Position numbers and translations under genes: made by a program. Of a stretch of DNA of 64,000 nucleotides, positions 15,470 through 36,168 are shown piece after piece. Position 1 is the stretch's first letter. Each line of letters opens with the position of its first letter. The notes under the pieces are model-generated. The model was not told the DNA's origin. It made no database searches and was given only the letters and a program-made list of their open reading frames with translations. This DNA is from Anaeroplasmataceae bacterium (GTDB taxonomy: Bacteria > Bacillota_I > Bacilli_A > Acholeplasmatales > Anaeroplasmataceae): the NCBI GenBank assembly GCA_031549865.1, contig JAVBPE010000018.1:20208-84207 (forward strand), in the 5' to 3' direction.

Positions 15470-15519
15470 TTATATACTATCTTAAATATGATGATTAAGA
15501 AGGAGTAAATTTATATTTT

Positions 15520-15752
15520 TCCATAGAGAGCTTTTGGTTGGTGAAAAAAAGCGTAAAGTATATTTTGAACTAGTCTTAGTAATAGAGCACTGAACAAAGA
15601 AATTTTAAGTAGGCTGCTTCGGGATGCCCGTTATAGCTATAAAGTATATTATATACTTGATAAGGTGAGTATCGTGAGATATTTATAAATTGAGGTGGAA
15701 CCACGAATGATCGTCCTCTAGGATACATATGTATCTTAGAGGATTTTTTTTC
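15520..15752 (+). promoter_or_regulatory. T-box leader (tRNA-sensing riboswitch), leucine specifier
   Basis: Stem I elements 'AGAGAG' and 'GGTTGGTGAAA'. Candidate specifier is CUA (15570-15572) or CUU-A (15575-15578), both Leu. Conserved T-box 'AAATTGAGGTGGAACCACG' lies at 15687-15705. The terminator is cctctaggatac ... gtatcttagagg followed by T8. Confidence 0.85.
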
Positions 15753-17483: not shown

Positions 17484-17656
17484 TAGAAACGAAAAACTTC
17501 AGGGCAGGGTGTAATTCCCGACCGGCGGTAAAGTCCGCGAGCGCAAGCTGATTAGGTGTAATTCCTAAACCGACAGTAGAGTCTGGATGGAAGAAGAATT
17601 TTCTAATTTTTAGAATTCATCTTTTTTGTCCTCCAGTTTTGGAGGACTTTTTCGTT
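17484..17656 (+). promoter_or_regulatory. FMN riboswitch (RFN element) with terminator
   Basis: Matches the RFN core: 'CAGGGCAGGGTGTAATTCCCGACCGGCGGTAAAGTCCGCGAGC ... GGTGTAATTCC ... ACCGACAGTAGAGTCTGGATGGAAGAAG'. The terminator is gtcctcca ... tggaggac followed by a T run. Confidence 0.9.
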
Positions 17657-17674
17657 TTAAGAAAGAGGAATAAG

Positions 17675-18289
17675 ATGAAAAAACAAAAATCAATCAAAAG
17701 AATTTGCTATATCGCAATTCTAAGTGCTCTTGCTTCAGTACTTTATAATGTACCGAAGTTTTCACTACCATGGTTTCCATCATTTTTGGAAATCAACTTC
17801 TCAATGCTTCCAATAATTATTGCGGCCTTTATGCTTGGACCAATTGATGGTAGTATTGCGGTAATTATTAGATGTATTATTAAATTTACTTTTTGGGGTT
17901 CAGGCACTCAAGGAGTAGGTGAAATATCGGATTTAATACTAGGTTTAGCCTGTGTATTAACATCTGGTTATGCTTACCGCATGTTAAAAGAAAAGAAACA
18001 TAGCGATTTAATAAGTATTATTATAATGATTCTAACTTGGATAATTACCTCAATTATTTCCAATTGGCTAGTTGTAATCCCTTTATATGTTAAATTATTA
18101 TTTGATGGTAATATGGCTCCACTTGTTGGAATGTGTAGTATTATTAAAGGAATTAATCAAGATAACTTTATGGGAATGTATTTATTATACGCAGTAGTAC
18201 CTTTTAATGCCCTTATTTCAATCTCGATTGGTTTAATTACTTATTTAGTAAATAAAAGAATTAAAGTTGTTTATAATCAATTCGAATAA
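17675..18289 (+). CDS. ribU: Riboflavin ECF-transporter S component
   Basis: I prefer the ATG at 17675 (agagga RBS); the TTG at 17639 lies inside the riboswitch terminator. Multi-pass membrane protein directly downstream of an FMN riboswitch. Confidence 0.8.
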   Translation: MKKQKSIKRICYIAILSALASVLYNVPKFSLPWFPSFLEINFSMLPIIIAAFMLGPIDGSIAVIIRCIIKFTFWGSGTQGVGEISDLILGLACVLTSGYAYRMLKEKKHSDLISIIIMILTWIITSIISNWLVVIPLYVKLLFDGNMAPLVGMCSIIKGINQDNFMGMYLLYAVVPFNALISISIGLITYLVNKRIKVVYNQFE

Positions 18290-23193: not shown

Positions 23194-23572
23194 GGGCTAG
23201 TTATGGATTCGCCGTGGTTGATAAAACTTTATAAGCACGTCATGGTTGCGCATGTAAAAACGCCGAGGTTAAAATAACCGCAAAAACAAATTTATTTGCA
23301 CGTTCTAATAATATGAACGTTGCATACGCTTGCTAATTTAAATAACGTAAGCTCTCAAATATAAGCTTTCCTATGGCTTATATCTTGGGATCACTATAAT
23401 AGGATATATTTAGTTCGTGCCACCTTAACGAACTAAATGAAAACAATAAGGTTAGCTATAATCTAGTATGCTTTTCTACAAGATTATAGTGAATTTAAAT
23501 GAAAAGCTAAACGTGTAGAAAGTAAAGCCTAGTTGGCTGCGTACGGGAGTTCGAGTCTCCCCTGGTCCACCA
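23194..23572 (+). ncRNA. ssrA: tmRNA (SsrA)
   Basis: The 5' GGGCTAG pairs with the 3' CTGGTCC, with a G3:U wobble (alanine identity), then ACCA. T-arm 'GGGAGTTCGAGTCTCCC'. The 'AAAATAACC|GCA AAA ACA ...' resume context resembles E. coli 'AAAATAGTC|GCA'. The candidate tag ORF is 23280-23336 (AKTNLFARSNNMNVAYAC, then stop). Confidence 0.9.
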
Positions 23573-23584
23573 AATAGAAAGCAT

Positions 23585-23623
23585 AGGTTTGATACAATTT
23601 AACGAATTGTATTAAACCTTTTT
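23585..23623 (+). terminator. Rho-independent terminator of ssrA
   Basis: 15-bp stem aggtttgatacaatt / aattgtattaaacct (one G-U), followed by a T run. Confidence 0.8.
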
Positions 23624-23645
23624 CTTTGCTTTTTTAACCAAATAT

Positions 23646-23692
23646 AGCCGCTTTTAAGCAAAATAACCTGCTTAGAGCGGCTTTTATTTGTT
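23646..23692 (+). terminator. Second strong hairpin/terminator-like element
   Basis: agccgct..taagca (23646-23660) pairs with tgctta.agcggct (23669-23682), followed by a T-rich tract. Confidence 0.5.
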
Positions 23693-23747
23693 TTATAGAA
23701 GTATTGCTGAACGGAAAATAATATGTAGTTTGATGCTGCTTTTAATC

Positions 23748-23789
23748 ATTTAACGATTACAGGCGAAAAATCAACTATTTAACGATTAC
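23748..23789 (+). repeat. Two direct copies of the 13-mer ATTTAACGATTAC
   Basis: Exact copies at 23748-23760 and 23777-23789. A 9-nt partial copy (ATTTAACGA) lies in the ssrA terminator loop at 23597-23605. Confidence 0.8.
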
Positions 23790-23975
23790 CTGCTAGGGGT
23801 GCGTAAAAAAAGTTAAATAATTTTTTAAGCCACTTTAGACAGAATTTTCTCAATAAACAACTGTTTTGGCTACTCTAAATTGGATAAAAAGTTCATTTAA
23901 TATAAAGTTTCTCAAATCGCCCTTTTTGCAACTCTTAGTTGATTTGACATAGAAATTATTAGTGATAGAATTAAA

Positions 23976-24179
23976 GTGAATTTGCAGAGCTCGCTAATGA
24001 TATTCGGAAAGATGGTGATGTTGATGAACTTAACTAATGAAGAAACTAAAACACTTCTTGCAATATTAAAAACAGAAATTGTCGAAGTTGAAGACCTAAT
24101 TAAAAATGCAGATGTTGCAGATAAAGCTGAACTAGAAAAGCATTTAGTAATTGTGAAATCTATTAGTAAAAAAATATAA
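23976..24179 (+). CDS. Hypothetical small helical protein (start uncertain; 51-67 aa)
   Basis: ORF with several possible starts (GTG 23976, ATGs further in). Preceded by TTGACA-16-TAGAAT (about 23944-23971) and followed by a terminator. No clear RBS. Confidence 0.35.
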   Translation: MNLQSSLMIFGKMVMLMNLTNEETKTLLAILKTEIVEVEDLIKNADVADKAELEKHLVIVKSISKKI

Positions 24180-24186
24180 TCTTTTT

Positions 24187-24214
24187 CTCCAAGACCATTG
24201 TTTTGGAGTTTTTT
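24187..24214 (+). terminator. Terminator after the small ORF
   Basis: ctccaa pairs with ttggag, followed by T6. Confidence 0.55.
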
Positions 24215-24255
24215 ATTAAATTTTAAAAATAATCATATAAAATAGTGTTTTAGTA

Positions 24256-24284
24256 TTGACATACCAAATTTATTGTGATATAAT
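24256..24284 (+). promoter_or_regulatory. Near-consensus promoter of the R-M cluster
   Basis: TTGACA (24256-24261), 17 nt spacer, TGaTATAAT (24276-24284). The ORF-track TTG start at 24256 is this -35 box. Confidence 0.7.
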
Positions 24285-24309
24285 ACAATTACGATGGAGG
24301 TATACCAAA

Positions 24310-25905
24310 ATGATTAATAAATATTGGGTATTAGAAAGCTTATATAGAGCAACAGGAAATACAAATTCGATGGAGCCTATTTACAACGTATATAGAGTAT
24401 TAAAACTAAAAGAACTAGGGTTCGGATTAGAGTCAACGCCAGAAGACTTAATGTATGGGATGTATTCTGCAAATAGTTTTCCACCATTTAAAGGCGACGC
24501 TAGGAACTTTTATGAAATTTTTAAAATTATTTCTGGTTTTACAGTTGAAGGGTGCATTGATTATATAGAGTATATTCGTACCAGCCAGAAGAAATCTTCG
24601 GCTACTGAATTTATGATTCCAGATTCATTGGCAAAAATAATGATGAAATCCATTACTAATAGGGTATCAAAAATTTATATTCCGGATTGTGAAAAATACG
24701 GCATAGCATTTTACAATTTGATTAGTTCATACTCTGAATGTAAATTTTATACTTCTTGCGTGGATGCTGATCTGAAAAAGCTTTATCAACTATTATATGC
24801 ACATTTGAATGTTGAGTTTATAAATGCTGACATATACCGAGAAGACTTTGTGCATGAAAAGTTTGATATAATTATTTGCTTTCCTATCATGGGCGGTCGT
24901 TCGCTTATCGACAAAAGTGGTTTTATAAGTAATGAACCCGCCTTAATTGCAGCACAGAATTTGTTATATCATCTCTTTCCAGATGGAAATTTAACAATCG
25001 TATTACCGGCTAAAGTAACTTTTGGTGGTGGTGACGTTCAATACTTTAGAGATTATATAGATAGTAACTACAAGATTAATGAAATAAGTTCATTGCCAAA
25101 CAAATTATTTTATCCATACATGGCAATTAATACTTATTTATTTAACTTTTCAAATGGCGTAACAGAGGATATTATCTTACGTAAATATTCTCTTGAAAAA
25201 AACAATACAAGCGTTCTTCCTAAGTTAATAGTGGAAGATGAAAAGTTGTATTTTGAAGACGAATTTAGATCATTAAACGGCTGGTCTATTGATATGGCTT
25301 TTAATTCTAATGATGAAGAAATACTAAATTTCACAGAGTCACGAGTAAAAAAGAATCAGTTAAAAGATGTTGCAACCTTATTTAGAGGTAGAGCAATTAC
25401 TGAAAAAGCTGATGATGGTAATATTGCTATAATCAATATTTCAGATATTTCAGATACCGGCATTGATTATTCAAATTTATATTCTATTAATGAAGAAGAA
25501 CGTAAAATAAGCAGATATATTCTTGAAGAAGACGATGTGTTAATTACTGCCAGAGGAACGACTGTAAAAATCGCTGTGTTTAAAGAACAAACCAAGATTT
25601 GTATCCCGTCATCAAACATTATAGTTGCAAGAACAAACAAACTGTTAAAAGGCGCATATTTGAAACTCTTTTTAGAATCCAAGGTCGGCAGCAAGATGCT
25701 TAAGAACCTTCAAAGAGGCGCAACAATTGTAAACATTAATTATCAAGACGTTGAAATGATTGAAGTACCAGTTCCACCAATGGAAAAACAAGAAGAAGTT
25801 GTTGCTAACTATGAAGCTGGACTTGATTTGTATAAAAAAACAGTAACAGAAGCAGAAAAAGCTTGGAAGAAAATACAAGCAGTAATTGAAGATGAATTAT
25901 ATTAA
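24310..25905 (+). CDS. HsdM-like protein with degenerate catalytic motifs, fused to a single HsdS-type target recognition domain
   Basis: ATG at 24310 with ggagg 9 nt upstream. The N-terminal part aligns by eye with the two neighbouring HsdM proteins. 'EFMIPDSLAKIMM' aligns with 'EFYTPRTIVKLLV'. 'YIPDCEKYG' aligns with 'YDPACGTGG'. 'FDIIICFPIMGG' (CFPI at 24877-24888) aligns with 'FDCVIANPPFGL'. The C-terminal part is Methylase_S-like: 'LKDVATLFRGRAI ... DDVLITARGT ... GATIVNINYQDVEMIEVPVPPMEKQEE'. Confidence 0.7.
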   Translation: MINKYWVLESLYRATGNTNSMEPIYNVYRVLKLKELGFGLESTPEDLMYGMYSANSFPPFKGDARNFYEIFKIISGFTVEGCIDYIEYIRTSQKKSSATEFMIPDSLAKIMMKSITNRVSKIYIPDCEKYGIAFYNLISSYSECKFYTSCVDADLKKLYQLLYAHLNVEFINADIYREDFVHEKFDIIICFPIMGGRSLIDKSGFISNEPALIAAQNLLYHLFPDGNLTIVLPAKVTFGGGDVQYFRDYIDSNYKINEISSLPNKLFYPYMAINTYLFNFSNGVTEDIILRKYSLEKNNTSVLPKLIVEDEKLYFEDEFRSLNGWSIDMAFNSNDEEILNFTESRVKKNQLKDVATLFRGRAITEKADDGNIAIINISDISDTGIDYSNLYSINEEERKISRYILEEDDVLITARGTTVKIAVFKEQTKICIPSSNIIVARTNKLLKGAYLKLFLESKVGSKMLKNLQRGATIVNINYQDVEMIEVPVPPMEKQEEVVANYEAGLDLYKKTVTEAEKAWKKIQAVIEDELY

Positions 25906-25920
25906 AAGGAGTAGGAAAAT

Positions 25921-28326
25921 ATGCTAGGTGCAATTATAGGAGATATTGTTGGTTCAAGATATGAATTCAATAATGTCAAAACAAAAGAATTTGAATTTTT
26001 AAATTATAAATGCTTTTTTACAGATGATTCTGTAATGACAATGGCTATTGCGAAGGCAATCATTGAAAGTAAAAAAGACTACAGTGATCTAAATGAAAAG
26101 GCTGTAAAATATATGAGAACTATTGGACGTAACTATCCAGACTCAGGATATGGTGGAAGATTTTATGAATGGATGTTCTCTGATAATCCACAACCTTATA
26201 ATAGTTTTGGTAACGGAGCGGCAATGAGGGTTAGTGCTTGCGGATGGGTAGCAAATTCTATTAAAGAGGCCGTTATGCTTTCAAAGAGAGTTACTGAAGT
26301 TACGCATAATAACGCCGAGGGGATAAAAGGTGCTGAGGCGGTAGCTGTTGCAATATATTTGGCCAGAACTGGAAAAAATATTTTTGAAATTAGAGATTAT
26401 ATAAACAAAAATTATTATCCAATGAATTTTAGACTAGATGATATTCGTGAAACATATCAGTTCAATGAGACTTGTCAAGACACAGTGCCGCAAGCGATAA
26501 CTGCATTTCTAGAGTCGAATAGTTTTGAAGATGCAGTAAGAAATGCTGTTTCGATCGGAGGCGATAGCGATACATTGGCAGCCATAACTGGCAGTATTGC
26601 TGAAGCTTACTATGGGATTCCAACAGAAATTAAGAAGCATGCAATAACTTATTTAGACGAAAGATTGCTTGCAATTTTAACAGAGTTTGAAAATATATAT
26701 CCTTCACTTATGGAAAAAATTATTGAATCCAATAGTGTTGGAATAAAAACAAAAGAAAAATCTATTAAGAATGGAGGAAGATCAAAAATGATAGAAGACA
26801 CGATGAATAACGCAGACATTGATTTGCTTGAAAGTGAATTGTCTGCTGAAGAAATTTCTAGTAAAAAATTGTTTAATCATTTATTTGAGGCTTGCAACAT
26901 TCTTAGAGGGCCAATTAACCAAGATGAATACAAAAGTTATGTAACACCAATTTTATTTTTTAAGAGAATTTCTGATGTATATGATGAAGAAACCGAAAAA
27001 GCTTTAAACGATTCTGGAGGTGATGTGGATTTTGCTAGTTTTGATGAAAATCACAGTTTTGTTATTCCAGACAATTGCCATTGGAATGACGTTAGAGATG
27101 CAAGTTCTAACATTGGTACAGCTATTGTAAATGCAATGAGTGGCATTGAAAGGGCCAATCCTGATACCTTAAGTGGAATATTCAGTAGTTTTGATGATGC
27201 TACTTGGACAGATAAATCAAAACTATCTGATGAAAGGTTGAAAAATTTGATTGAACATATGTCCTCAATTAAAGTTGGAAACAATAATTATTCTGCAGAT
27301 GTAATGGGAGATGCATACGAATTTTTAATTAAAAAATTCGCAGATCTATCCAAGAAAAACGCTGGAGAATTTTACACACCTAGAACAATAGTAAAATTGC
27401 TAGTAAATTTACTTGATCCAAAACCAGGTGATGAGGTTTATGATCCTGCATGTGGAACTGGTGGTATGTTGATAGAAGCAATTCATCATATAAATAATGA
27501 TAGATTAACCTATGGAAGAATATATGGTCAAGAGAAAAATCTTGCCACATCAGCAATCGCTAGGATGAATCTATTTTTACATGGCGGTAAGGACTTTAAG
27601 ATATTACAAGGAGATACGCTTCGCAATCCAAAATTTTTAAGAGCAGGAAAAGTGCAAAAATTTGATTGCGTAATTGCAAATCCTCCATTTGGTTTAGATA
27701 AATGGGGTGCAGATCAATTTGAAGTAGATCCATATGGTCGTAACATATGGGGGACACCATCTGATACAAGCGCTGATTTTGCATGGCTTCAACACATGGT
27801 TTCATCAATGAAAAACAAAAATGGAAGATGTGCGGTAATTTTACCGCAGGGAGTGTTATTCCATGGTAGTAAAGCTGGGGAAATGCGAAATAAGCTCATT
27901 TCATCGGATGTAATTGAATGTGTGATCACTTTAGTTGGCGGCGTATTTTTTGCTGCAGGAGTAAATGCATGTATTTTACTATTAAATAATAATAAGCAAA
28001 ATGTGCACAAAGGGAAAATATGTATGATTGATGCAACAAAAATCTATACTGCAAAACGAGCACAAAATATAATGACAGAACAGAACATAGAGGAAGTATT
28101 TAAATTGTATCAGAACTATACAAATGTTATTGAAAAATGTGAGATTGTAGCGATAAAAGATTTATTAGATACATTAATGCCAAACGTCTATATAAAAAAA
28201 ATAATAGCTGGAAAAGTTTCATCATTAGAAATTAAAAAGCAATATATAATTAATTATGAAAAAATGGTTATTAGCGAAATGAAAGCGAAAAAACTTTTAT
28301 TAGAGGGAGGATACTTAGATGAGTAA
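25921..28326 (+). CDS. hsdM: ADP-ribosylglycohydrolase domain fused to Type I R-M methyltransferase subunit HsdM
   Basis: The first ~270 aa are ARH/DraG-like: 'MLGAIIGDIVGS', 'FTDDSVMT', 'GNGAAMRV', 'GGDSDT' (26557-26574). The rest has an HsdM_N-like 'ILRGPINQDEYKSYVTPILFFKRISDVYDEE', motif I 'DPACGTGG' and motif IV 'NPPF' (27679-27690). An in-frame GGAGGA-9 nt-ATG lies at 26773-26790. Confidence 0.8.
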   Translation: MLGAIIGDIVGSRYEFNNVKTKEFEFLNYKCFFTDDSVMTMAIAKAIIESKKDYSDLNEKAVKYMRTIGRNYPDSGYGGRFYEWMFSDNPQPYNSFGNGAAMRVSACGWVANSIKEAVMLSKRVTEVTHNNAEGIKGAEAVAVAIYLARTGKNIFEIRDYINKNYYPMNFRLDDIRETYQFNETCQDTVPQAITAFLESNSFEDAVRNAVSIGGDSDTLAAITGSIAEAYYGIPTEIKKHAITYLDERLLAILTEFENIYPSLMEKIIESNSVGIKTKEKSIKNGGRSKMIEDTMNNADIDLLESELSAEEISSKKLFNHLFEACNILRGPINQDEYKSYVTPILFFKRISDVYDEETEKALNDSGGDVDFASFDENHSFVIPDNCHWNDVRDASSNIGTAIVNAMSGIERANPDTLSGIFSSFDDATWTDKSKLSDERLKNLIEHMSSIKVGNNNYSADVMGDAYEFLIKKFADLSKKNAGEFYTPRTIVKLLVNLLDPKPGDEVYDPACGTGGMLIEAIHHINNDRLTYGRIYGQEKNLATSAIARMNLFLHGGKDFKILQGDTLRNPKFLRAGKVQKFDCVIANPPFGLDKWGADQFEVDPYGRNIWGTPSDTSADFAWLQHMVSSMKNKNGRCAVILPQGVLFHGSKAGEMRNKLISSDVIECVITLVGGVFFAAGVNACILLLNNNKQNVHKGKICMIDATKIYTAKRAQNIMTEQNIEEVFKLYQNYTNVIEKCEIVAIKDLLDTLMPNVYIKKIIAGKVSSLEIKKQYIINYEKMVISEMKAKKLLLEGGYLDE

Positions 28327-29815
28327 TAGAATTAAATTAGAAGATCTTGAAACATATTTATGGGATTCAGCGGTTTTATTGAGAACAAATATTGATGCTG
28401 GAGCATATAAGCAATATATTTTCCCTCTATTATTTTTCAAAAGAATTTGTGATGTTTATGATGAAGAAACAAATACTGCTTTTGATAAATATGGAAATGA
28501 TGCATTTGAATTTGATGAAGATGAATTGCACACTTTTATAATTCCTAAAGGATATCATTGGAATGATGTTAGAGAAACAACAGAAAATGTTGGTTTGTCT
28601 ATTATAACAGCATTTAGAAAAATTGAAAAAGCTAATAAAGAAAAACTACGTGGAGTATTTGGGGATGCCGCTTGGACTAATAAGAACAGATTACCAGACA
28701 AATTACTTAAGGATATTATAGAACATTTTAGCACTCAAACTTTATCCATTGAGAATTGTCCGGAAGATGAACTAGGACAAGGCTATGAATACTTAGTAAA
28801 GAAATTTGCTGACGATAGTGGACATACAGCACAAGAATTTTATACTAACAGAACTGTGGTTCATCTTATGACAGAAATGCTTCAACCAAAATCAGGAGAA
28901 TCTATATACGATCCGACATGTGGAAGTGCAGGCATGTTAATTTCCGCTATTGCATATCTGAAGTTGAAAGGTGCAGAATGGAGAAATGTCTCTATATATG
29001 GTCAAGAGATAAATTCATTATCATCTTCAATAGCAAAAATGAACCTTTTTCTACATGGCGTAAAAGATTTTAATATCGTAAATGATGACACTCTTGCTAT
29101 GCCTGCGTTTATAGAAAAAGGGAAATTAAAACAATTTGATATGGTCCTAGCAAATCCACCATATTCTATAAGCCAATGGGATAGAAAAGCATTTGAATCT
29201 GATAAATATGGTAGAAACTTCTTAGGTGTTCCGCCACAAGGTCGAGCTGATTATGCATTTATTCAACATATTCTTAAAAGCATGAGCTCTCAAAGTGGAA
29301 GATGCGCTATTTTATTACCTCATGGTGTTTTAAGTAGAAATGAGGAAAAAATAATAAGAGAAAAACTTCTTAAAGCAGATTTGTTAGAATGTGTTGTGGG
29401 TATTGGCAAAAATTTATTCTATAATAGTCCAATGGAAGCATGCATTATGATTTGTAGAACAAGAAAGCCAAAAGACAGAGTTGGTAAAGTGCTTTTTATA
29501 AATGCTAAAAACGAAATTACTAGAAAAGATTCCTTTAGTTACTTAGAAAACAAACATATAGAAAAAATTGTAGAGGCTTATAATAATTTTGACAAAATAA
29601 ATAATTTTGCAGAAGTTGTTAGTATTGGTGATTTGTTATCAAATAATTCATCTTTGAGTATCGGATATTATGTGAATCATATTGTCGAAAAGGCGAATGA
29701 TAAAGGTTTTAGTATCACTGATTGTTATTTAGAATGGATTAGTACTTCTGAAAAAATTAATGAAAAAATGTCAAATATTGTCGATTTGATAAAAGGTGGT
29801 GTTGACAATGAGTAA
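28319..29815 (+). CDS. hsdM: Type I R-M methyltransferase subunit HsdM (second paralogue)
   Basis: 'LFFKRICDVYDEE', 'EFYTNRTVV', 'DPTCGSAG' and 'NPPY' (29153-29164). Its start overlaps the upstream stop by 8 nt. Confidence 0.9.
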   Translation: MSNRIKLEDLETYLWDSAVLLRTNIDAGAYKQYIFPLLFFKRICDVYDEETNTAFDKYGNDAFEFDEDELHTFIIPKGYHWNDVRETTENVGLSIITAFRKIEKANKEKLRGVFGDAAWTNKNRLPDKLLKDIIEHFSTQTLSIENCPEDELGQGYEYLVKKFADDSGHTAQEFYTNRTVVHLMTEMLQPKSGESIYDPTCGSAGMLISAIAYLKLKGAEWRNVSIYGQEINSLSSSIAKMNLFLHGVKDFNIVNDDTLAMPAFIEKGKLKQFDMVLANPPYSISQWDRKAFESDKYGRNFLGVPPQGRADYAFIQHILKSMSSQSGRCAILLPHGVLSRNEEKIIREKLLKADLLECVVGIGKNLFYNSPMEACIMICRTRKPKDRVGKVLFINAKNEITRKDSFSYLENKHIEKIVEAYNNFDKINNFAEVVSIGDLLSNNSSLSIGYYVNHIVEKANDKGFSITDCYLEWISTSEKINEKMSNIVDLIKGGVDNE

Positions 29816-30959
29816 AATTAAATTAGGTGATGTATTAATTAGGGTGAAAGAATCGGTAGATAAAGATAATACTGATTTAGTTTATTATATTGGTGGAGAG
29901 CATTATGAATCAAGATCACTTACAATTAATAATAAAGGCAAAATAGAAGGTAGTACAATAGGCCCAGCTTTTAGCACAAAGTTCAAAGCGGGTGATGTAT
30001 TGTTAATGTCAAGAAATCCTCATTTAAGAAAAGCTGGAATTGTGAATTTTGATGGTATCTGTTCAGACGTAAGCTACATCATAAGAACTAAAGATGAAAA
30101 TGTTGTAATGCAGCAGTTTATTCCTATTTTATTTCAAAGCGATCTTTTTTGGGATTTTGCTGAAAAAAATAAAAAAGGATCAACTAATTTTTTCTTAAAT
30201 TGGAGTGATTTCGAAAGATTTGAGTTTGAATTGCCTACTTTGGATAAACAACAACAGTTAGTTAATGTTTTATGGGCTATAAATGACAATGTAGAATGTT
30301 ATAAGGAAATGCTATTGCAAAATGATAAATTAATTAGAGCAGAATTCGACGAAATGTGTGAAAACATAAAAGAAACTATTTCTTTAGCAGATTGTTGCAA
30401 AATCCATGCAAGAATTGGCTGGCAAGCATTGACAAAAAAAGAGCATTTAACCTCAGGAGAATTTTTGCTAATAACCGGTACTGATTTTTTAGATGGTGAA
30501 ATAAATTATTCAACCTGCGTCTATGTTTCTGAAGACAGGTACAAAATGGACGAACATATAATTTTAAAAGAGAATGATGTGCTTGTTACTAAAGATGGAA
30601 CGATTGGAAAAGTGGCAATTGTTCGTAATTTACCAAAACCTGCAACATTAAATAGTGGAATATTCGTTATAAGGCCAGATGATAGATTTAATAAAGAATT
30701 TATCTCATATGTTTTTACTGGTCCTGTCTTTGCAGAATTTGTTGATAAAGTTAAAACTGGAGCAACAATTAAGCACTTAAATCAAAATAAAATGTTGCAA
30801 TTCAAGATACCTCTTCCAACATATAAAAAGCAAGAAGATTTTGCAAAATTTGTTTGCATGATAATGGAAATTAAAAGATCATTGCAAGAAGGAATAATCC
30901 ATTTAAATAATGTTTATCAAAGAATCGTAAATCAAAATCTATCATTAAAGGAGGAATAA
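29808..30959 (+). CDS. hsdS: Type I R-M specificity subunit HsdS (two TRDs)
   Basis: I prefer the ATG at 29808, which overlaps the hsdM end. Two Methylase_S-like halves each end in a conserved helix: 'LPTLDKQQQLVNVL' and 'LPTYKKQEDFAKFV'. Confidence 0.85.
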   Translation: MSKIKLGDVLIRVKESVDKDNTDLVYYIGGEHYESRSLTINNKGKIEGSTIGPAFSTKFKAGDVLLMSRNPHLRKAGIVNFDGICSDVSYIIRTKDENVVMQQFIPILFQSDLFWDFAEKNKKGSTNFFLNWSDFERFEFELPTLDKQQQLVNVLWAINDNVECYKEMLLQNDKLIRAEFDEMCENIKETISLADCCKIHARIGWQALTKKEHLTSGEFLLITGTDFLDGEINYSTCVYVSEDRYKMDEHIILKENDVLVTKDGTIGKVAIVRNLPKPATLNSGIFVIRPDDRFNKEFISYVFTGPVFAEFVDKVKTGATIKHLNQNKMLQFKIPLPTYKKQEDFAKFVCMIMEIKRSLQEGIIHLNNVYQRIVNQNLSLKEE

Positions 30960-30960
30960 T

Positions 30961-33876
30961 ATGTCAGTATTTAATGAAGACAATACAATAGAGCAAATGA
31001 TCATTGCCACATTAAGTAGCAACGGCTGGAAGTTTGTTTCACCTGAAGACTTGAATCGTGAATTATCTGATGTGATGGTTGAATCAATGGTTAAGGATGC
31101 CTTAATTAGATTAAATCCTGAAATTGCGGAAGAACCGTCTCGTGCCGATGAAGTAATTTATAAGCTTCGTACATTGATTAATAGTGTTCAGGCACACAAT
31201 TTGGTCACTCAAAACGAAACATTTAAAAAATGGATCTTTGAAGAAAATTCTTATCCATTTGGTAAAGATGGAAGAATGGTACCAATCAGATTCTTTGGTA
31301 CCATAACAAAAGAAAACCTTAGCTTAAATGAATATGTAGTTACTAATCAATGGTCGTATCCTTGCGATGAAGGTGGAAAAAGACTAGACATTGTGCTTTT
31401 AATCAATGGATTTCCTATTGCGATTGGTGAATTAAAAACGCCGGTTCGTAGTGCTATTTCTTGGGTTGATGCTGCTTCGGATATTTTGAGTTATGAAAAA
31501 AGCATTCCTCAAATGTTTGTAACTAATGTATTCAATTTTGCAACAGAAGGAAAGTGTTTTAGATATGCAGCAATAAATGCAAACATGAATTTATGGGGAC
31601 CTTGGCATACAGATACACATAAAATTGAAGGCGGGTTAGCTGACGTTAAAATTAGTATTGAAGATATGATTACTCCTGAAAAAATAATGGATATTTTCCA
31701 ATTCTTCACAATGTTTGCAACGGATAAGAAATATAGAAAATATAAGATTATATGTCGCTATCAACAATATGAAGGAGCGAATTCTATAGTTCAAAGAGTT
31801 TTGACCGGATATCCAAAGAAGGGCTTGATATGGCATTTTCAAGGTTCTGGTAAATCGCTACTTATGGTATTTGCAGCACAAAAACTACGTATGGTTCCTG
31901 AATTAAGAAATCCAACAGTAGTAATAGTAGATGATCGTATTGATCTTGAAACACAAATTACCGCTACATTTAATGCATCAGATATTCCGAATCTTGCAAG
32001 CGCTGGTTCTAAAGAAGAGTTGATATCTTTCTTTAAGGGAGATATGCGAAAAATACTTATTACAACAATATTTAAATTTGGCGAAGTCGAAGGTGAATTA
32101 AATAGACGTGACAATATTATATTAATGGTTGATGAAGCGCATAGAACTCAAGAAGGTAATCTTGGTGAAAAAATGAGGCTTGCACTTCCAAACGCATTTT
32201 TCTTTGGATTAACTGGTACGCCAATTAATAGAGTTGACCGTAATACATTTGCAACTTTTGGTGCAGATGAGGATAGAAGCGGCTATATGAGCAAATATTC
32301 ATTCTCAGATTCTATTAGAGACAAAGCTACCTTACCTCTAAACTTTGAACCAGTTCCGGTGGACTTGCATGTTGATAAGGACACTTTGGATACAGAGTTC
32401 GATGTTTTAACGGAAAGCCTAACAGAGGAGCAAAGGGCGCAACTATCAGCAAGAGTAAACATGAAAGCAATATTTTATAGCCCTGCTCGTATTAAGAAAG
32501 TCTGCGAGCATATTGTAAAACACTACAGAGAGAAAATCGAGCCAAATGGTTATAAAGGACAAGTTGTGTGTTATGACCGAGAATGTTGTATCCGCTATAA
32601 AGAAGAATTTGACAAATTAATGGGTGAAGAAGAAACAACTGTAGTTATAGATACGAATAGCGATAAGGAAGATAGATATAAAAAGTTTAGACGAGATAGA
32701 GATGAAGAAGGACGAGTTCTTGATTCATTTAGGGATCCTAAAAGCTCATTAAAACTTGTAATTGTTACGGCAAAACTATTAACTGGCTTTGACGCTCCAA
32801 TTTTACAAGCAATGTATCTTGATAAACCGATGAAAGATCACACATTGTTACAAGCTATTTGTAGAACTAACCGTACTTATGATGAAGGAAAAACACATGG
32901 ATTAATTGTTGACTACACTGGTATTTTTGATAATGTGGCAAGAGCATTAGACTTCGATGAAAACACTATGAAGAAAATTATTTCTAACATTGAAGAAATA
33001 AAGAAACAATTACCTGCCTTGCTAAAAAAATGTTTGAGTTACTTTATGGGTGTGGATCGCACTGTACAGGGTTGGGAAGGTTTAATGGCTGCACAGGAGT
33101 GCCTACCAACTAACAAAGAAAAAGATGCTTTTGCTGCAGATTATAGAGTGTTAAACAGAGCATGGAATGCATTATCACCAGACGATTTCTTATTTCCATA
33201 TAGCGTTGATTATCAGTGGCTTTCAAAAGTTTACGAATCAGTTAAACCAACTGATGGAACTGGAAAATTAATCTGGAGTACTCTCGGACCAAAGACAATT
33301 GAATTGGTGCACAGAAATATATCTGTTGGAGCAGTCCATGATAATGAAGAAATACTAACGCTTGATGCCAATTTAATTGATGAGTTCATTTCAAAGAATG
33401 GCGATATTAAGAAAGCAACGAAGAAAATTGAAATTAGCCTGGTTTCCAAAATATTAGGACATAGCAACGAGCCGAGATTTGTAAAACTTGGTGAGAAACT
33501 TGAGGCTCTGCGTGAAAAACATGAGCAAGGATTAATCACTAGTATAGAATTCTTAAAGTTACTTTTGGAATTGGCAAAAGAAGCTGCACAAGCAGAAAAA
33601 GAATACGTGCCTGAAGATGAAGTGAATAAAGGTATCGCTGCTCTGACAGAATTGTTTAATAGCGTCAAAAATAGAGCAACTCCAATTATCGTTGAACGCA
33701 TTGTAAAAGATATTGATGACATAGTTAGAATTGTTAGATTCGATGGTTGGCAAAACACAACAGCAGGTAAGCAGGAAGTAAAAAAGGCGTTAAGAAGTGT
33801 TGTATGGATTAAATACAAGATTAAAGATATTGATGTATTTGATAAGTCATACAAGTATATAGAACAATACTATTAA
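30961..33876 (+). CDS. hsdR: Type I restriction enzyme R subunit HsdR
   Basis: N-terminal PD-(D/E)xK 'RLDIVLLINGFPIAIGELK', SF2 motif I 'FQGSGKSL', motif II 'MVDEAHRTQ', motif VI 'QAICRTNR'. The C-terminal helical domain is typical of HsdR. 971 aa. Confidence 0.9.
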   Translation: MSVFNEDNTIEQMIIATLSSNGWKFVSPEDLNRELSDVMVESMVKDALIRLNPEIAEEPSRADEVIYKLRTLINSVQAHNLVTQNETFKKWIFEENSYPFGKDGRMVPIRFFGTITKENLSLNEYVVTNQWSYPCDEGGKRLDIVLLINGFPIAIGELKTPVRSAISWVDAASDILSYEKSIPQMFVTNVFNFATEGKCFRYAAINANMNLWGPWHTDTHKIEGGLADVKISIEDMITPEKIMDIFQFFTMFATDKKYRKYKIICRYQQYEGANSIVQRVLTGYPKKGLIWHFQGSGKSLLMVFAAQKLRMVPELRNPTVVIVDDRIDLETQITATFNASDIPNLASAGSKEELISFFKGDMRKILITTIFKFGEVEGELNRRDNIILMVDEAHRTQEGNLGEKMRLALPNAFFFGLTGTPINRVDRNTFATFGADEDRSGYMSKYSFSDSIRDKATLPLNFEPVPVDLHVDKDTLDTEFDVLTESLTEEQRAQLSARVNMKAIFYSPARIKKVCEHIVKHYREKIEPNGYKGQVVCYDRECCIRYKEEFDKLMGEEETTVVIDTNSDKEDRYKKFRRDRDEEGRVLDSFRDPKSSLKLVIVTAKLLTGFDAPILQAMYLDKPMKDHTLLQAICRTNRTYDEGKTHGLIVDYTGIFDNVARALDFDENTMKKIISNIEEIKKQLPALLKKCLSYFMGVDRTVQGWEGLMAAQECLPTNKEKDAFAADYRVLNRAWNALSPDDFLFPYSVDYQWLSKVYESVKPTDGTGKLIWSTLGPKTIELVHRNISVGAVHDNEEILTLDANLIDEFISKNGDIKKATKKIEISLVSKILGHSNEPRFVKLGEKLEALREKHEQGLITSIEFLKLLLELAKEAAQAEKEYVPEDEVNKGIAALTELFNSVKNRATPIIVERIVKDIDDIVRIVRFDGWQNTTAGKQEVKKALRSVVWIKYKIKDIDVFDKSYKYIEQYY

Positions 33877-33897
33877 AATTTAAGGGAGGTGAACTGC

Positions 33898-35817
33898 ATG
33901 AGTTGCAATTCTGTTGAGAAATATATCGAAAACAAATATCGTGATTATATATTTTCTAAGATTTTAAAATTTTACAATGAAATAAAAAGTCATTTAGATA
34001 TGCATACTTATGCAGTTCCATATCCAACTTTTATAACATTAGACGAAATTACGGTAGAAAAGGTGTATTTTAAGGATGATATATTTGGAAAGAATCTTGA
34101 GTTCAAATTAGTTGTTAGAGCAGATTTTATTCTTAAAGGAGATCGCTTTAATGATTATGAGACAGATACACTTTACCGTAAGTTTACTGTTACGGGTACA
34201 GGAATTTTAAATAATGGAATTAGCAAATTCTACATTTCTGATGTTGAAGAGTATATAAATCAAGCGTATCAATATAAACATGCCTTGTCTGCGTTTGCTA
34301 TTCCATATATTTCAACGGATGATTTAGAATATAGAGCAGAAGAGTTTTTGACTAAGCATTGTAAAGAAGCACTTGAAGAACCGATGCAGTTACCATTAAA
34401 TAAAATTTTGATCAATATGAATGTAACTGTCTTTCATGCACCGTTAGGCAAAAGAATATTTGGAAAAACATTTTTTGCTCAATCAACTGAAAAAATTTAC
34501 AATGATGATAATGAAGTAGAAGATAAGCAAATATACGAAAGAACTATTTTAATAGATCCAGATGTGTTTTTCTTTAGAAATATAGGAACTTATAATAATA
34601 CAGTTATTCATGAGTGTATCCACGTGGAATATCATTCTAATTATTTTGAGCTTCAAAAACTAATAAATAGTTCATTAAAATCAATTGCATGTAAGGTTAA
34701 CAAGGGTTCAAAACAATTGAATACTAATGAACAAAAAGCACTAGATTTTATGGAATGGCAAGCAAGTATGTTGGCACCAAGAATACTGATGCCTGCGAAA
34801 ACAACAAAAATCAAATATCAGCAATTAATATCTGAAATTAATCAAGATTTCCCGTCATATCTAAAAGGAAAAAAGATGGAGATTTTGATTGACAGGTTAG
34901 CAGAGTTTTTTCAAGTCTCAAAACAAGCTGCAAAAATAAGACTTATAGATTTAGGCGTTGATGCTGCTGCTGGTGTGCAAAACTATGTAAATGGCAAAAA
35001 GATTCCTAGTTTTGCATTTAAAAGTCATTCTTTAAATCGTAATCAAACATTCATAATTGATTTTAAAGATTCAGTTAAAGAAATTAAAGTTAATCAAACG
35101 TTAAATTCACTTTCAATCGAAGGAAAGCTAGCATACATAAACGGAATGGTTGTGCTAAACTTACCGAAATATGTTATTAAAGATGATTTCGGTAATAAAG
35201 TTCTGACAAACTATGCTTTGGAGCATGTTGATGAATGTGCGTTTGTCTTTACAAAAGATACCTCACCAAACAAGAACACTTACAGTGAATATTTAGACAC
35301 AATGTGTTTTCTCTGCAGGCCAGAAAGCAAAGATGACTATGTTTCTGGTAACTATGATAGGACTTCAACTTCCAACAGACAACTTGAAAATGCCGGAATA
35401 TCCTTTTTAGATGAGTTAGACGATATTCATAATGCTAAAGCGTTGCTAAAAAAGATGAACGGAGAGTTTGCTGAAGATTTTCTAACTGTTGTAACTGAAT
35501 TAGGATATTTGAAATCAGATGGAATTCCCAATTATTATGCTATTTCTAAATTAACAAGTGTAACAGACCATACTATAAAGAATTATTTGGATGGTACAAG
35601 CACGCCACAAAAAGAAAAGTTGATAGCTATTTGCGGAGGATTATGTTTACATACAAAAGTGGCATATAAACTTCTTGAAAAAGCTAATCTTACAATTTTA
35701 AATAGTATGAATGAAACTGATCTTACTTATTGTGCTCTGATTGAAAGACATTACGATGAAGGTCTTGAAAAATGGAATGAATATTTAAGCGAAGCTAATT
35801 TTAATCAACTACCTTAA
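33898..35817 (+). CDS. Large ImmA/IrrE-type (M78, HExxH) metallopeptidase-domain protein with C-terminal XRE-like HTH
   Basis: I prefer the ATG at 33898 (gggagg 8 nt upstream), 21 nt after hsdR. Has 'HECIH' (34609-34623) and a downstream 'MEWQASMLAPRILMP' matching the ImmA ExxAxxFAxxLLMP block. The C-terminal 'ISKLTSVTDHTIKNYLDGTSTPQKEKLIAICGGL' is HTH-like. The N-terminal ~230 aa is unassigned. Confidence 0.65.
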   Translation: MSCNSVEKYIENKYRDYIFSKILKFYNEIKSHLDMHTYAVPYPTFITLDEITVEKVYFKDDIFGKNLEFKLVVRADFILKGDRFNDYETDTLYRKFTVTGTGILNNGISKFYISDVEEYINQAYQYKHALSAFAIPYISTDDLEYRAEEFLTKHCKEALEEPMQLPLNKILINMNVTVFHAPLGKRIFGKTFFAQSTEKIYNDDNEVEDKQIYERTILIDPDVFFFRNIGTYNNTVIHECIHVEYHSNYFELQKLINSSLKSIACKVNKGSKQLNTNEQKALDFMEWQASMLAPRILMPAKTTKIKYQQLISEINQDFPSYLKGKKMEILIDRLAEFFQVSKQAAKIRLIDLGVDAAAGVQNYVNGKKIPSFAFKSHSLNRNQTFIIDFKDSVKEIKVNQTLNSLSIEGKLAYINGMVVLNLPKYVIKDDFGNKVLTNYALEHVDECAFVFTKDTSPNKNTYSEYLDTMCFLCRPESKDDYVSGNYDRTSTSNRQLENAGISFLDELDDIHNAKALLKKMNGEFAEDFLTVVTELGYLKSDGIPNYYAISKLTSVTDHTIKNYLDGTSTPQKEKLIAICGGLCLHTKVAYKLLEKANLTILNSMNETDLTYCALIERHYDEGLEKWNEYLSEANFNQLP

Positions 35818-35825
35818 AAAAGTTT

Positions 35826-35950
35826 CTCGTAATGTATTACGAGTATAAAAACAATAAATTTAATAAATCTATAGGCTTTATGTCAAATCTAGTATTCTAG
35901 AAGAGGCATAAAGCCTTTTTTTATGCTTTAAGGCTCGTAATAGATTACGA
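35826..35950. repeat. Two copies of the palindrome CTCGTAAT-NN-ATTACGA
   Basis: Copies at 35826-35843 (ctcgtaatgtattacgag) and 35934-35950 (ctcgtaatagattacga) bracket the cluster terminator. Confidence 0.8.
35873..35922 (+). terminator. Strong terminator closing the R-M cluster
   Basis: 10-bp stem aggctttatg / cataaagcct with an inner 5-bp stem tctag / ctaga, followed by T7. Confidence 0.8.
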
Positions 35951-35967
35951 TTGCTCATTTTTTACTT

Positions 35968-35976
35968 TGATATAAT
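35968..35976 (+). promoter_or_regulatory. Extended -10 promoter element (TGaTATAAT) at the left end of the phage region
   Basis: TGATATAAT at 35968-35976. No good -35. Confidence 0.4.
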
Positions 35977-36168
35977 ACGTTTGAATTAAGACCGGCTACC
36001 TTAATTCGTACTTTACATCCCTAGCTAGGATGTCACAATAAAGTACAAAAAACTTAATAAACGCAGCTTGGACCATTGTGAGGGAAGGACTGCAAACTGA
36101 AATGGGTGTATTTTTACACGTTCATTCTTTTTGCTATGCCTTCTTTGCGCCTTGATGCATTTGGAAAG

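What the first reader, a model, noticed from the sequence alone, without database searches (positions are those of the whole stretch)
24310..25905. HsdM paralogue with degenerate SAM-binding and catalytic motifs fused to a single TRD (candidate pseudo-methyltransferase DNA reader or decoy)
By-eye alignment to the two adjacent intact HsdM proteins shows colinear blocks, but the functional residues are replaced. Motif I DPACGTGG/DPTCGSAG becomes IPDCEKYG. Motif IV NPPF/NPPY becomes CFPI (24877-24888). The C-terminal ~190 aa is a single HsdS-type target recognition domain plus the conserved helix ('VPVPPMEKQEEV...'). Inference: the protein probably cannot methylate adenine but could still dock on DNA or into M/S assemblies. 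It might act as a half-S specificity donor, a regulator, or a decoy/sensor for DNA-mimic anti-restriction proteins.
Basis: partly seen in the sequence, partly recalled or inferred. Interest (0 to 1): 0.7.

Follow-up and report, generated by a model that had tools for sequence, protein, structure and literature searches.

The report
Dead methylase likely controlling restriction operon
The first gene of this restriction-modification operon encodes an inactivated DNA methyltransferase fused to one DNA-reading domain, and its own promoter carries a conserved palindrome, so the protein most likely acts as the operon's sequence-specific repressor, not as an enzyme.

Summary
ORF 24310-25905 (531 aa) has a gamma-class N6-methyltransferase fold, one HsdS-type TRD and a long C-terminal helix. 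The cofactor and catalytic motifs are lost: none of 220 relatives examined has (D/N/S)PP(Y/F/W). This is not strain-specific decay. The protein belongs to a large conserved family (185 clusters at 50% identity with E<1e-30). In every locus with enough flanking DNA it is the first gene of a PacII-type (M1 NPPF / M2 NPPY) Type I R-M operon.

The TRD is the most conserved part of the protein, whereas the neighbouring HsdS subunits diverge, so it is not a specificity donor. The TRD plus helix is a strong homologue of Esub1 (PDB 8VSQ), a half-S homodimer of unknown function that is bound by the phage protein paratox.

New here: 34 of 35 loci carry a palindrome, T(R)GTAT-N4-ATAC(Y)A, in the gene's promoter. 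In the window it lies at 24251-24266, and GTA and TAC flank the -35 hexamer TTGACA. The arms stay constant while the spacer and the promoter context change. The same palindrome precedes streptococcal esub1.

Best reading (about 0.6): a homodimeric, M2S-like clamp without methylating activity that autoregulates the operon. A role as decoy or sensor remains possible as an added layer. No binding has been tested.

The parts
24187..24208 (+). Intrinsic-terminator-like hairpin plus T-run that insulates the operon from upstream transcription
24251..24266 (.). Predicted operator: the palindrome TAGTAT-TGAC-ATACCA (GTA-N6-TAC at 24253-24264). Its six central bases are the -35 hexamer.
   Evidence: This is the only RGTATN4ATACY in the 64 kb window (0.29 expected). 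It is conserved in 34 of 35 loci, with arms more conserved than the spacer. The same palindrome lies upstream of streptococcal esub1.
24256..24284 (+). Consensus sigma-70 promoter: TTGACA, 17 nt, TG-n-TATAAT (-10 at 24279-24284)
   Evidence: the only 12/12 match with a TG extension in 23500-36300
24310..25905 (+). Gene for the pseudo-methyltransferase-TRD protein (531 aa; called pM-S1/2 in this report)
24310..24645 (+). N-terminal helical region (residues 1-112), the least conserved part (mean 32% identity)
   Evidence: No Pfam HsdM_N hit.
24646..25314 (+). Degenerate gamma-class methyltransferase domain (residues ~113-335). Motif I remnant IPDCEKYG at 24679-24702; motif IV remnant FPIM at 24880-24891.
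25315..25779 (+). Single Esub1-type TRD (residues ~336-490). It includes the helix R398-K399-I400-S401-R402-Y403 (nt 25501-25518), which aligns with the paratox-binding insertion helix R65-Y70 of Esub1.
   Evidence: PMC11754733
25780..25902 (+). C-terminal conserved-region helix (residues 491-531), the presumed dimerisation helix
   Evidence: helix 491-530; alignment to the Esub1 dimerisation helix
25921..28326 (+). ADP-ribosylglycohydrolase fused to PacII-type M1 (HsdM, NPPF)
   Evidence: best PDB hit 7VRU_A, E 5e-131
28319..29815 (+). PacII-type M2 (HsdM, NPPY)
   Evidence: best PDB hit 7VRU_B, E 6.5e-156
29796..30959 (+). HsdS with two TRDs
30961..33876 (+). HsdR
33889..35817 (+). 642-aa ORF with a weak IrrE/M78 and CapP-like metallopeptidase match (HECIH). 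It is the last gene before the terminator at 35899-35921.

Best explanation
The protein is a catalytically dead M-S(half) fusion that has been kept as a sequence-specific DNA-binding regulator of its own Type I R-M operon.

Inferred steps:
1. Two copies pair through the C-terminal helix, as the Esub1 homodimer does. The pair forms an M2S-like clamp with two identical, inverted TRDs.
2. The clamp recognises the symmetric bipartite site RGTAT-N4-ATACY (GTA-N6-TAC). In the window this site is at 24251-24266 and encloses the -35 hexamer of a consensus-strength promoter.
3. Occupancy hinders RNA polymerase. This gives negative feedback on the whole operon: pM-S1/2, ARH-M1, M2, S, R and the M78-like gene.
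4. Because the SAM and catalytic motifs are gone, the protein binds without methylating. Its target is fixed and independent of the variable HsdS.

Shown: the fold, the motif loss, the family-wide conservation, the gene position, and the conserved palindrome.
Inferred: dimerisation, binding to the palindrome, and repression.
For: Fold and architecture.

Motif loss across the family: none of 220 relatives has (D/N/S)PP(Y/F/W). Yet many residues in the dead domain are invariant. This indicates selection for a non-catalytic role.

Gene position: it is always the first gene, followed by M1-M2-S-R or by R-M1-M2-S. This holds in Mollicutes, Bacilli, Clostridia, Alphaproteobacteria and other MAGs, and in IMG/VR contigs.

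TRD conservation: the TRD averages 67% identity, against 32% for the HsdS of the same loci. This fits a fixed target.

Palindrome:
- T(R)GTAT-N4-ATAC(Y)A lies within about 60-320 nt upstream in 34 of 35 loci.
- The arm positions have the highest information content of the promoter region. The central spacer is variable: TTGACA, TTGTAA, TTTACA, TTGATA, TTGGCA.
- In L008, in the alphaproteobacterial clade and in the divergent L213/L214, the palindrome is separate from the -35 hexamer and has unrelated spacers.

Independent context: streptococcal stand-alone Esub1 homologues have the same palindrome about 33-48 nt before their start codon, there enclosing the -10 TATAAT. There are 144 sites, against 4-46 for composition-matched control palindromes. 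Density peaks within 2 kb of esub1.

Metagenome scan: of the returned exact matches to the 18-nt operator/promoter that have a downstream ORF, 54 of 108 sit directly upstream of a family member.

Esub1 precedent: Esub1 is a homodimer with a conserved DNA-facing surface, and its authors considered it transcription-factor-like (PMC11754733).

Why keep the methyltransferase domain: the Type I review states that neither S nor M binds DNA alone (PMC3874165). That gives a reason to retain a methyltransferase-shaped domain.

RptR precedent: RptR shows that first-gene repressors of Type I R-M operons exist (PMC12255303).
Against: - No binding or expression experiment exists. The link between protein and palindrome is purely comparative.
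- The loci share ancestry, so they are not independent observations.
- In several clades the palindrome lies about 15-25 nt upstream of the -35 hexamer rather than over it. The sign of regulation there is uncertain.
- With all genes in one operon, simple autorepression would not by itself delay restriction relative to modification.
- Half of the exact operator matches in metagenomes are not next to the family. These are plausibly chance matches, but the chance expectation was only estimated roughly.
- Stand-alone Esub1 lacks any methyltransferase domain, so the role of the dead domain is unexplained.
Confidence: 0.6

Rival explanations
1. Decoy or sponge for anti-restriction proteins. The dead M2S-like dimer exists mainly to bind DNA-mimic proteins (Ocr/ArdA-like) or Prx-like phage proteins. 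It would titrate them away from the real enzyme or signal their presence.
For: The closest structural match, 7EEW, is an M-S(half) fusion crystallised with Ocr. The TRD homologue Esub1 is bound on its DNA-facing helix by the phage protein paratox, and that helix motif (RxPhixR) is conserved here. Ronin shows that decoy HsdMS modules exist.
Against: On its own, this does not explain the conserved palindrome in the gene's promoter, or the fixed first-gene position. No toxin or effector like RonA is evident. The idea is compatible with the regulator model as an added layer.
Confidence: 0.15
2. Non-catalytic structural subunit of the R-M enzyme. It would assemble with M1, M2 or HsdR, for example as a scaffold, an assembly factor or an inhibitor of HsdR, without a DNA operator function.
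For: Strict genetic linkage to the M1-M2-S-R genes. In many loci the next gene is hsdR. The methyltransferase-shaped domain could keep HsdM-type contacts.
Against: PacII M1M2S was purified from co-expression in E. coli as a three-subunit complex and was active (PMC9613975). Esub1 did not convincingly bind HsdM. This model does not account for the conserved TRD, or for the palindrome seen in both R-M and streptococcal contexts.
Confidence: 0.12
3. An active methyltransferase with unusual motifs that methylates GTA-N6-TAC.
For: The overall fold is intact and many residues around the former active site are invariant (P192, G195, R197). Distant relatives keep GxG and xPPF-like motifs.
Against: The glycine-rich loop is replaced by E-K-Y/F. 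No acidic motif II residue is conserved. There is no N/D/S and no aromatic residue at motif IV in any of 220 relatives.
Confidence: 0.04
4. A half-S specificity donor for recombination or subunit exchange with HsdS.
For: It has a single TRD plus a conserved helix. Some loci have hsdS shufflons with an integrase.
Against: Its TRD is conserved across loci whose HsdS TRDs differ. It shares only 28% identity with the TRD2 of the neighbouring HsdS. It is fused to a 335-residue domain that shufflon cassettes lack.
Confidence: 0.03

Closest known systems
Esub1 (SpyM3_0890) of Streptococcus pyogenes, PDB 8VSQ/8VSR (PMC11754733)
   Same: The TRD plus C-terminal helix is homologous (profile E 4e-60, 35-36% identity, TM 0.88-0.90 normalised to Esub1). 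The insertion helix with the RxPhixR motif is conserved. The same palindrome lies in front of the gene.
   Different: Esub1 is a stand-alone ~200-aa protein, not linked to R-M genes. Here the module is fused to a dead methyltransferase domain and heads a Type I operon. The function and DNA site of Esub1 are unknown in the paper.
Minimal intact Type I methyltransferase of Vibrio vulnificus YJ016 (M-S half fusion, PDB 7EEW)
   Same: Same domain order: methyltransferase, one TRD, then a helix. It is the top Foldseek hit (E 1e-20).
   Different: 7EEW is deposited as an intact methyltransferase. The window protein lacks motifs I, II and IV. Sequence identity is only 14%.
Transcriptional controllers of R-M systems: C proteins of Type II systems (own knowledge) and RptR of Type I systems (PMC12255303)
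   Same: The gene is encoded at the head of the R-M operon. A palindromic site lies in its own promoter. The predicted action is autorepression.
   Different: Those controllers are small dedicated regulators. RptR is a small homodimer that binds TAGCTA. This protein is 531 aa and is built from the R-M system's own M and S modules. Its regulation is predicted, not shown.
PacII-type m6A/m4C Type I R-M systems (PMC5100572, PMC9613975)
   Same: The neighbouring genes are M1 (NPPF), M2 (NPPY), S and R in that order. Their best PDB hits are PacII M1 and M2.
   Different: The passages of the two papers examined here did not mention a dead-methyltransferase-TRD gene or an ADP-ribosylglycohydrolase fusion ('ADP-ribosyl' and 'inactive' occur 0 times in PMC5100572).
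Ronin decoy HsdMS system (bioRxiv 10.1101/2023.04.06.535777)
   Same: A Type I M/S module is used for something other than host protection, independently of methylation.
   Different: Ronin keeps separate, catalytically intact HsdM and HsdS, lacks HsdR, and needs the RonA toxin. Here hsdR is present, and RonA was not looked for.

Membership tests
Gamma-class N6-adenine DNA methyltransferase (Pfam N6_Mtase; Type I HsdM) | Rossmann-type methyltransferase fold | tested here: met
   AlphaFold model with pLDDT 87. Foldseek hits to 7EEW, CamA, M.TaqI and HsdM with E 1e-20 to 1e-14. Partial Pfam hit above the cut-off.
Gamma-class N6-adenine DNA methyltransferase (Pfam N6_Mtase; Type I HsdM) | Motif I glycine-rich SAM loop (xGxG) | tested here: not met
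   IPDCEKYG aligns with DPTCGSAG. The family consensus is xExEK(Y/F).
Gamma-class N6-adenine DNA methyltransferase (Pfam N6_Mtase; Type I HsdM) | Motif IV (D/N/S)PP(Y/F/W) | tested here: not met
   FPIM here. None of 120 close relatives and none of 100 representative relatives has it.
Gamma-class N6-adenine DNA methyltransferase (Pfam N6_Mtase; Type I HsdM) | HsdM N-terminal domain | tested here: inconclusive
   No PF12161 hit. hhalign aligns only residues 105-272. The region is helical in the model.
Type I specificity subunit HsdS | Methylase_S TRD fold | tested here: met
   PF01420 E 1.2e-14. PADLOC Specificity_I E 6e-22.
Type I specificity subunit HsdS | Two TRDs and two conserved helices in one chain | tested here: not met
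   One TRD (346-498) and one helix (491-530).
Type I specificity subunit HsdS | TRD varies between related systems, because it determines specificity | tested here: not met
   TRD mean identity is 67%, against 32% for the HsdS of the same loci.
Esub1-like half-S proteins | TRD-like head plus C-terminal dimerisation helix with sequence homology to Esub1 | tested here: met
   Profile E 3.9e-60 over residues 333-528. Foldseek TM 0.88-0.90 normalised to Esub1.
Esub1-like half-S proteins | Insertion helix with the RxPhixR motif | tested here: met
   R398-K-I-S-R402-Y403. The pattern [RK]x(hydrophobic)x[RK] occurs in 112 of 120 close relatives.
Esub1-like half-S proteins | Homodimer in solution | not testable with these tools
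   Only single-chain prediction is available.
Esub1-like half-S proteins | Stand-alone ~200-aa protein | tested here: not met
   Here it is fused to 335 N-terminal residues.
R-M operon transcriptional controller (functional class: C proteins, RptR) | Encoded at the head of the R-M operon | tested here: met
   It is the first gene in all loci with enough flanking DNA.
R-M operon transcriptional controller (functional class: C proteins, RptR) | Conserved palindromic site in its own promoter | tested here: met
   34 of 35 loci, with arms conserved over variable spacers.
R-M operon transcriptional controller (functional class: C proteins, RptR) | Demonstrated binding and repression | not testable with these tools
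   Needs EMSA and reporter assays.
PacII-type m6A/m4C Type I R-M (genomic context) | Two HsdM genes, M1 with NPPF upstream of M2 with NPPY, then S and R | tested here: met
   Translations. Best PDB hits are 7VRU_A for M1 and 7VRU_B for M2. The order is as in PMC5100572.
MADS (MAD5 specificity subunit) | NCBIfam NF047740 above its cut-off | tested here: not met
   60.6 bits against a cut-off of 400.

The most novel reading that the evidence does not exclude
The protein is a decoy-repressor. It is an M2S look-alike that keeps a consensus-strength promoter shut by clamping the operator. Phage DNA-mimic or Prx-like anti-restriction proteins pull it off the operator, or the co-encoded IrrE/CapP-like peptidase cleaves it. 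An attack on restriction would then automatically induce the whole Type I R-M operon. If so, Esub1-type TRDs would be a previously unrecognised class of bacterial transcription factors derived from restriction enzymes, with a predicted site GTAT-N4-ATAC.
Probability: 0.18. Interest if true: 0.9.

Novelty: new variant of a known kind. Interest (0 to 1): 0.72.

Why it matters
Control of Type I R-M systems is best known at the protein level (restriction alleviation, ClpXP). A first-gene repressor of Type I operons, RptR, was described only in 2025.

This family would be a second, unrelated solution. The system's own methyltransferase-plus-TRD module, stripped of catalysis, would be reused as a sequence-specific repressor.

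The work also gives the first concrete, testable DNA site for Esub1, which has a solved structure but no known function and is targeted by a streptococcal prophage protein.

It also flags a widespread five-to-six-gene variant of the m6A/m4C Type I systems. That variant includes an ADP-ribosylglycohydrolase-M1 fusion, which current annotation labels only as 'restriction endonuclease subunit S' and 'N-6 DNA methylase'.

Tried and rejected
- Pairwise BLASTP of the target against the adjacent HsdM was not significant. I dropped 'close paralogue'.
- The NCBIfam MADS5 and PRK09737 hits are far below their cut-offs. The protein is not a member of either.
- tblastn against PLSDB plasmids gave only partial TRD hits. 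INPHARED phages gave nothing.
- Looking up the exact window protein on contigs returned nothing, so the source organism was not identified.
- Rfam finds no RNA family at the site. It finds only the tmRNA, an FMN riboswitch and a T-box elsewhere.
- A recombination or att-site reading of the palindrome was rejected. The islands sit at a tmRNA or tRNA 3' end hundreds of nt further upstream, and streptococci carry several copies at promoters.
- An RNA-hairpin reading was rejected. In the main clade the palindrome includes the -35 hexamer, so it lies upstream of the transcript.
- The exact-operator scan of metagenomes was less clean than hoped. Only about half of the returned matches are next to a family member. 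The rest look like chance matches in a very large collection, but I could only estimate that expectation roughly, at some tens.
- Literature searches for a prior description of pseudo-methyltransferase/HsdS regulators found none. The library does not cover subscription journals.
Full report
**1. The observation**

The ORF at 24310-25905 (+) is real. It starts at ATG 24310, has GGAGG ten bases upstream, and encodes 531 aa.

Pfam detects a Methylase_S domain (residues 346-498, E 1.2e-14). It detects only a fragment of N6_Mtase (residues 216-280, E 5e-6).

An AlphaFold2 model built on 53 homologues is confident (pLDDT 87.3, pTM 0.69). It shows four parts:
- a helical N-terminal region;
- a Rossmann-type domain;
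- a TRD;
- a 40-residue C-terminal helix.

Foldseek against the PDB returns these as best hits:
- the M-S(half) fusion methyltransferase of Vibrio vulnificus crystallised with Ocr (7EEW, E 1e-20);
- Esub1;
- CamA, BpuSI, M.TaqI and HsdM subunits.

Profile-profile alignment with the HsdM proteins of this and related loci, and alignment with distant relatives that keep GxG, give these equivalences:
- IPDCEKYG sits on DPTCGSAG (motif I).
- FPIM sits on NPPY (motif IV).
- No conserved acidic residue follows strand 2 (motif II).

Pairwise BLASTP between the target and the adjacent HsdM is not significant. The relationship is therefore remote, not a recent paralogy.

**2. A selected pseudo-enzyme, not decay**

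A word-seeded search found more than 200 full-length relatives at 44-62% identity. The exhaustive profile search found 185 clusters at 50% identity with E<1e-30.

None of 120 close relatives and none of 100 cluster representatives has (D/N/S)PP(Y/F/W). The motif I position reads xExEK(Y/F).

Many residues in the dead domain are nevertheless invariant, for example D186, P192, G195, N217, H221, K235 and R247.

The most distant relatives listed still have GxG and GxEIN, with variants such as HPPF, TPPF and NFPF at the motif IV position. This suggests descent from active M-S(half) fusion enzymes.

**3. Genomic context**

The tmRNA gene lies at 23194-23572. A terminator follows at 24187-24208. Next comes the only perfect sigma-70 promoter of the region: TTGACA at 24256-24261, 17 nt, then TG-n-TATAAT ending at 24284.

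Six tightly packed genes follow:
- the target gene;
- an ADP-ribosylglycohydrolase-HsdM fusion (NPPF);
- a second HsdM (NPPY);
- HsdS;
- HsdR;
- a 642-aa ORF with a weak IrrE/CapP-like match.

A terminator at 35899-35921 closes the unit.

The two HsdM proteins hit PacII M1 and M2 best (7VRU_A at 5e-131; 7VRU_B at 6.5e-156). The gene order is that of the m6A/m4C Type I subgroup (PMC5100572; PMC9613975).

The target's homologue is the first gene in every locus with enough flanking DNA. It is followed by M1-M2-S-R or by R-M1-M2-S. The loci examined were:
- five places found by exact-protein look-up;
- 31 full-length loci from GTDB genomes, covering Mollicutes, Bacilli, Clostridia, Alphaproteobacteria and MAGs labelled Spirochaetales and Deltaproteobacteria;
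- eight IMG/VR contigs.

The ARH fusion is absent in L026 and in the alphaproteobacterial clade. The linkage is therefore to the M1M2SR core, not to ARH.

**4. The TRD is not a specificity determinant of the usual kind**

Mean identities across six loci are:

| Part | Mean identity |
|---|---|
| Fused TRD | 67% |
| Dead methyltransferase domain | 52% |
| N-terminal region | 32% |
| HsdS of the same loci | 32% (24% in its second half) |
| M1, M2 and R | 73-83% |

A conserved TRD next to diversifying HsdS argues for a fixed target.

**5. Link to Esub1**

A profile of the family hits PDB 8VSQ/8VSR (Esub1, S. pyogenes SpyM3_0890) with E 3.9e-60 over residues 333-528.

The paper (PMC11754733) reports the following:
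- Esub1 is a half-S-like homodimer held together by its C-terminal helices.
- It has a conserved putative DNA-binding face.
- That face includes an insertion helix (RxPhixR) which the prophage protein paratox binds.
- No clear HsdM binding was seen.
- Its function and DNA site are unknown. The authors considered it transcription-factor-like.

The helix is conserved here as R398-K-I-S-R402-Y403.

**6. A conserved palindrome in the promoter**

The DNA upstream of the gene is unrelated between loci except for about 45 nt.

In 34 of 35 loci there is a palindrome, T(A/G)GTAT-N4-ATAC(C/T)A, within about 60-320 nt of the aligned start. In the window it is TAGTATTGACATACCA at 24251-24266. That is GTA-N6-TAC with the -35 hexamer as the N6. 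It is the only RGTATN4ATACY in 64 kb, where 0.29 are expected.

In an anchored alignment of 33 distinct promoters, the arm positions are the most conserved columns. The central three bases are variable.

The arms persist in changed contexts:
- They persist when the hexamer changes: TTGTAA, TTTACA, TTGATA, TTGGCA.
- In L008 and the alphaproteobacterial clade, the palindrome lies upstream of a separate TTGACA. It reads TGGTATT-NN-AATACTCA, with NN = CA, AG, AA or TA.
- In the divergent L213 and L214 it is TGGTAT-GCTA-ATACCA, 7-15 nt before TTGACA.
- A distant member (L038) has two perfect TTGTATT-NN-AATACAA copies.

This pattern, with specific arms and a free spacer of fixed length, is what a symmetric Type-I-style recognition site looks like. 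The symmetric adenines of GTA-N6-TAC are 7 bp apart. That equals the methylated-base spacing reported for PacII-type enzymes, but I treat this only as compatible geometry.

**7. Independent check in Streptococcus**

About 45 streptococcal genomes encode stand-alone Esub1 homologues. Most carry TAGTAT-N4-ATACTA 33-48 nt before the start codon. There the palindrome encloses the -10 TATAAT.

GTAT-N4-ATAC occurs 144 times in 818 kb. The eleven control palindromes with permuted arms occur 4-46 times each. Density is 0.74 and 0.43 per kb in the 2 kb on either side of esub1, and 0-0.13 per kb further away.

Further copies lie before an ECF-transporter operon, a DUF2130 gene and a DUF438-hemerythrin gene.

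The only component shared by the two contexts is the Esub1-type TRD with its helix.

**8. Scan for the operator itself**

The exact pattern TRGTATTGACATACYAAA was scanned in the metagenome collection.

Of 108 stretches with a downstream ORF, 54 match the family HMM. Four more look like truncated N-termini of family members. The rest are unrelated genes.

From my own rough estimate of the collection's size, some tens of chance matches are expected. I read this as strong enrichment, not as exclusivity.

**9. Mechanism proposed**

Shown:
- the fold;
- the motif loss;
- selection on the protein;
- the first-gene position;
- the conserved palindrome in two independent contexts.

Inferred:
- The dimer clamps the palindrome as an M2S-like complex.
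- It represses a promoter that is otherwise of consensus strength, setting the level of the whole operon.

The dead methyltransferase domain may be kept for a structural reason: according to the Type I review, in Type I enzymes neither S nor M binds DNA alone (PMC3874165). Loss of catalysis lets the protein occupy its site without modifying DNA.

RptR (PMC12255303) shows that first-gene repressors of Type I operons exist. This protein would be an unrelated scaffold doing the same job.

**10. Rivals and the open layer**

- *Decoy or sponge for anti-restriction proteins.* This is plausible: 7EEW binds Ocr, Esub1 binds paratox, and Ronin is a precedent. On its own it does not explain the palindrome. 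It fits best as an addition, in which titration of the repressor would induce the operon.
- *Structural subunit of the enzyme.* Not excluded, but the purified PacII M1M2S was active as a three-subunit complex.
- *Active enzyme with odd motifs.* Unlikely.
- *Specificity donor.* Disfavoured.

**11. Weaknesses**

- Nothing here measures binding or expression.
- The loci share ancestry, so they are not independent observations.
- The operator position relative to -35 differs between clades, so the sign of regulation may differ.
- Autorepression of a single operon does not by itself order modification before restriction.

**12. Verdict**

The most likely function is a dead-methyltransferase/TRD autoregulator of a PacII-type Type I R-M operon, with confidence about 0.6. 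In novelty terms it is a new variant of a known kind.

Noticed in passing
window 25921-28326: An ADP-ribosylglycohydrolase domain (residues 1-233) is fused to the N-terminus of the PacII-type M1 methyltransferase. The fusion is conserved in most Firmicutes and Mollicutes loci. It is absent in L026 and in the alphaproteobacterial loci L032-L037. Its role in a Type I system is unexplained. A DarTG2 ADP-ribosylation module embedded in a Type I RMS is described in PMC12255303.
   Followed up: partly
window 33889-35817: A 642-aa ORF has an HExxH motif (HECIH), a weak Peptidase_M78/IrrE Pfam hit and a PADLOC CapP hit. It is conserved after hsdR in L006, L007, L008, L015 and L017, after hsdS in L213, and lies upstream on the opposite strand in L026. 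From my own knowledge, proteases of this type cleave repressors, so it could act on the predicted regulator. Untested.
   Followed up: partly
window 23194-23572: A tmRNA gene (tag AKTNLFARSNNMNVAYAC) lies just after smpB and just before the R-M island. The island seems to sit at ssrA. In L006 and L007 the corresponding islands lie next to a tRNA 3' end.
   Followed up: partly
window 23944-24208: A small ORF (23976-24179, 67 aa, no Pfam hit) has its own near-consensus promoter (23944-23971) and terminator (24187-24208). It lies between the tmRNA and the operon. The homologous loci were not searched for this ORF.
   Followed up: no
L040-L085 (Streptococcus), e.g. L040 7076, 9965, 10446, 11605, 12994: Copies of GTAT-N4-ATAC cluster around esub1. 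Some lie in front of an ECF-transporter operon (Trep_Strep/CbiQ/ABC) and genes for DUF2130 and DUF438-hemerythrin-PAS proteins. This suggests a local Esub1 regulon. Some copies lie inside ORFs.
   Followed up: partly
L038 5192-5207 and 5518-5533: Two perfect TTGTATT-NN-AATACAA palindromes, 326 bp apart, lie upstream of a distant family member (27-40% identity). Its neighbourhood showed no M1/M2/S/R matches within the contig.
   Followed up: no
L001 15500-19406; L003/L011 18450-21600; L050 18467-21276: In L001 and L003/L011 there are extra hsdS genes with a tyrosine recombinase between them; L050 has an extra hsdS match. These look like phase-variable hsdS shufflons, in loci that also have the dead-methyltransferase gene.
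   Followed up: no
window 15482-15721 and 17491-17602: A T-box leader precedes the 557-aa ORF at 15776-17449. An FMN riboswitch precedes a membrane-protein ORF at 17639-18289. Both look like ordinary housekeeping features.
   Followed up: no
representatives P0235-P0268: The most distant relatives with the same domain order keep GxG and GxEIN. At motif IV they have unusual variants (HPPF, TPPF, NFPF, FPPI). Whether these are active enzymes or SAM-binding non-enzymes is unknown.
   Followed up: no
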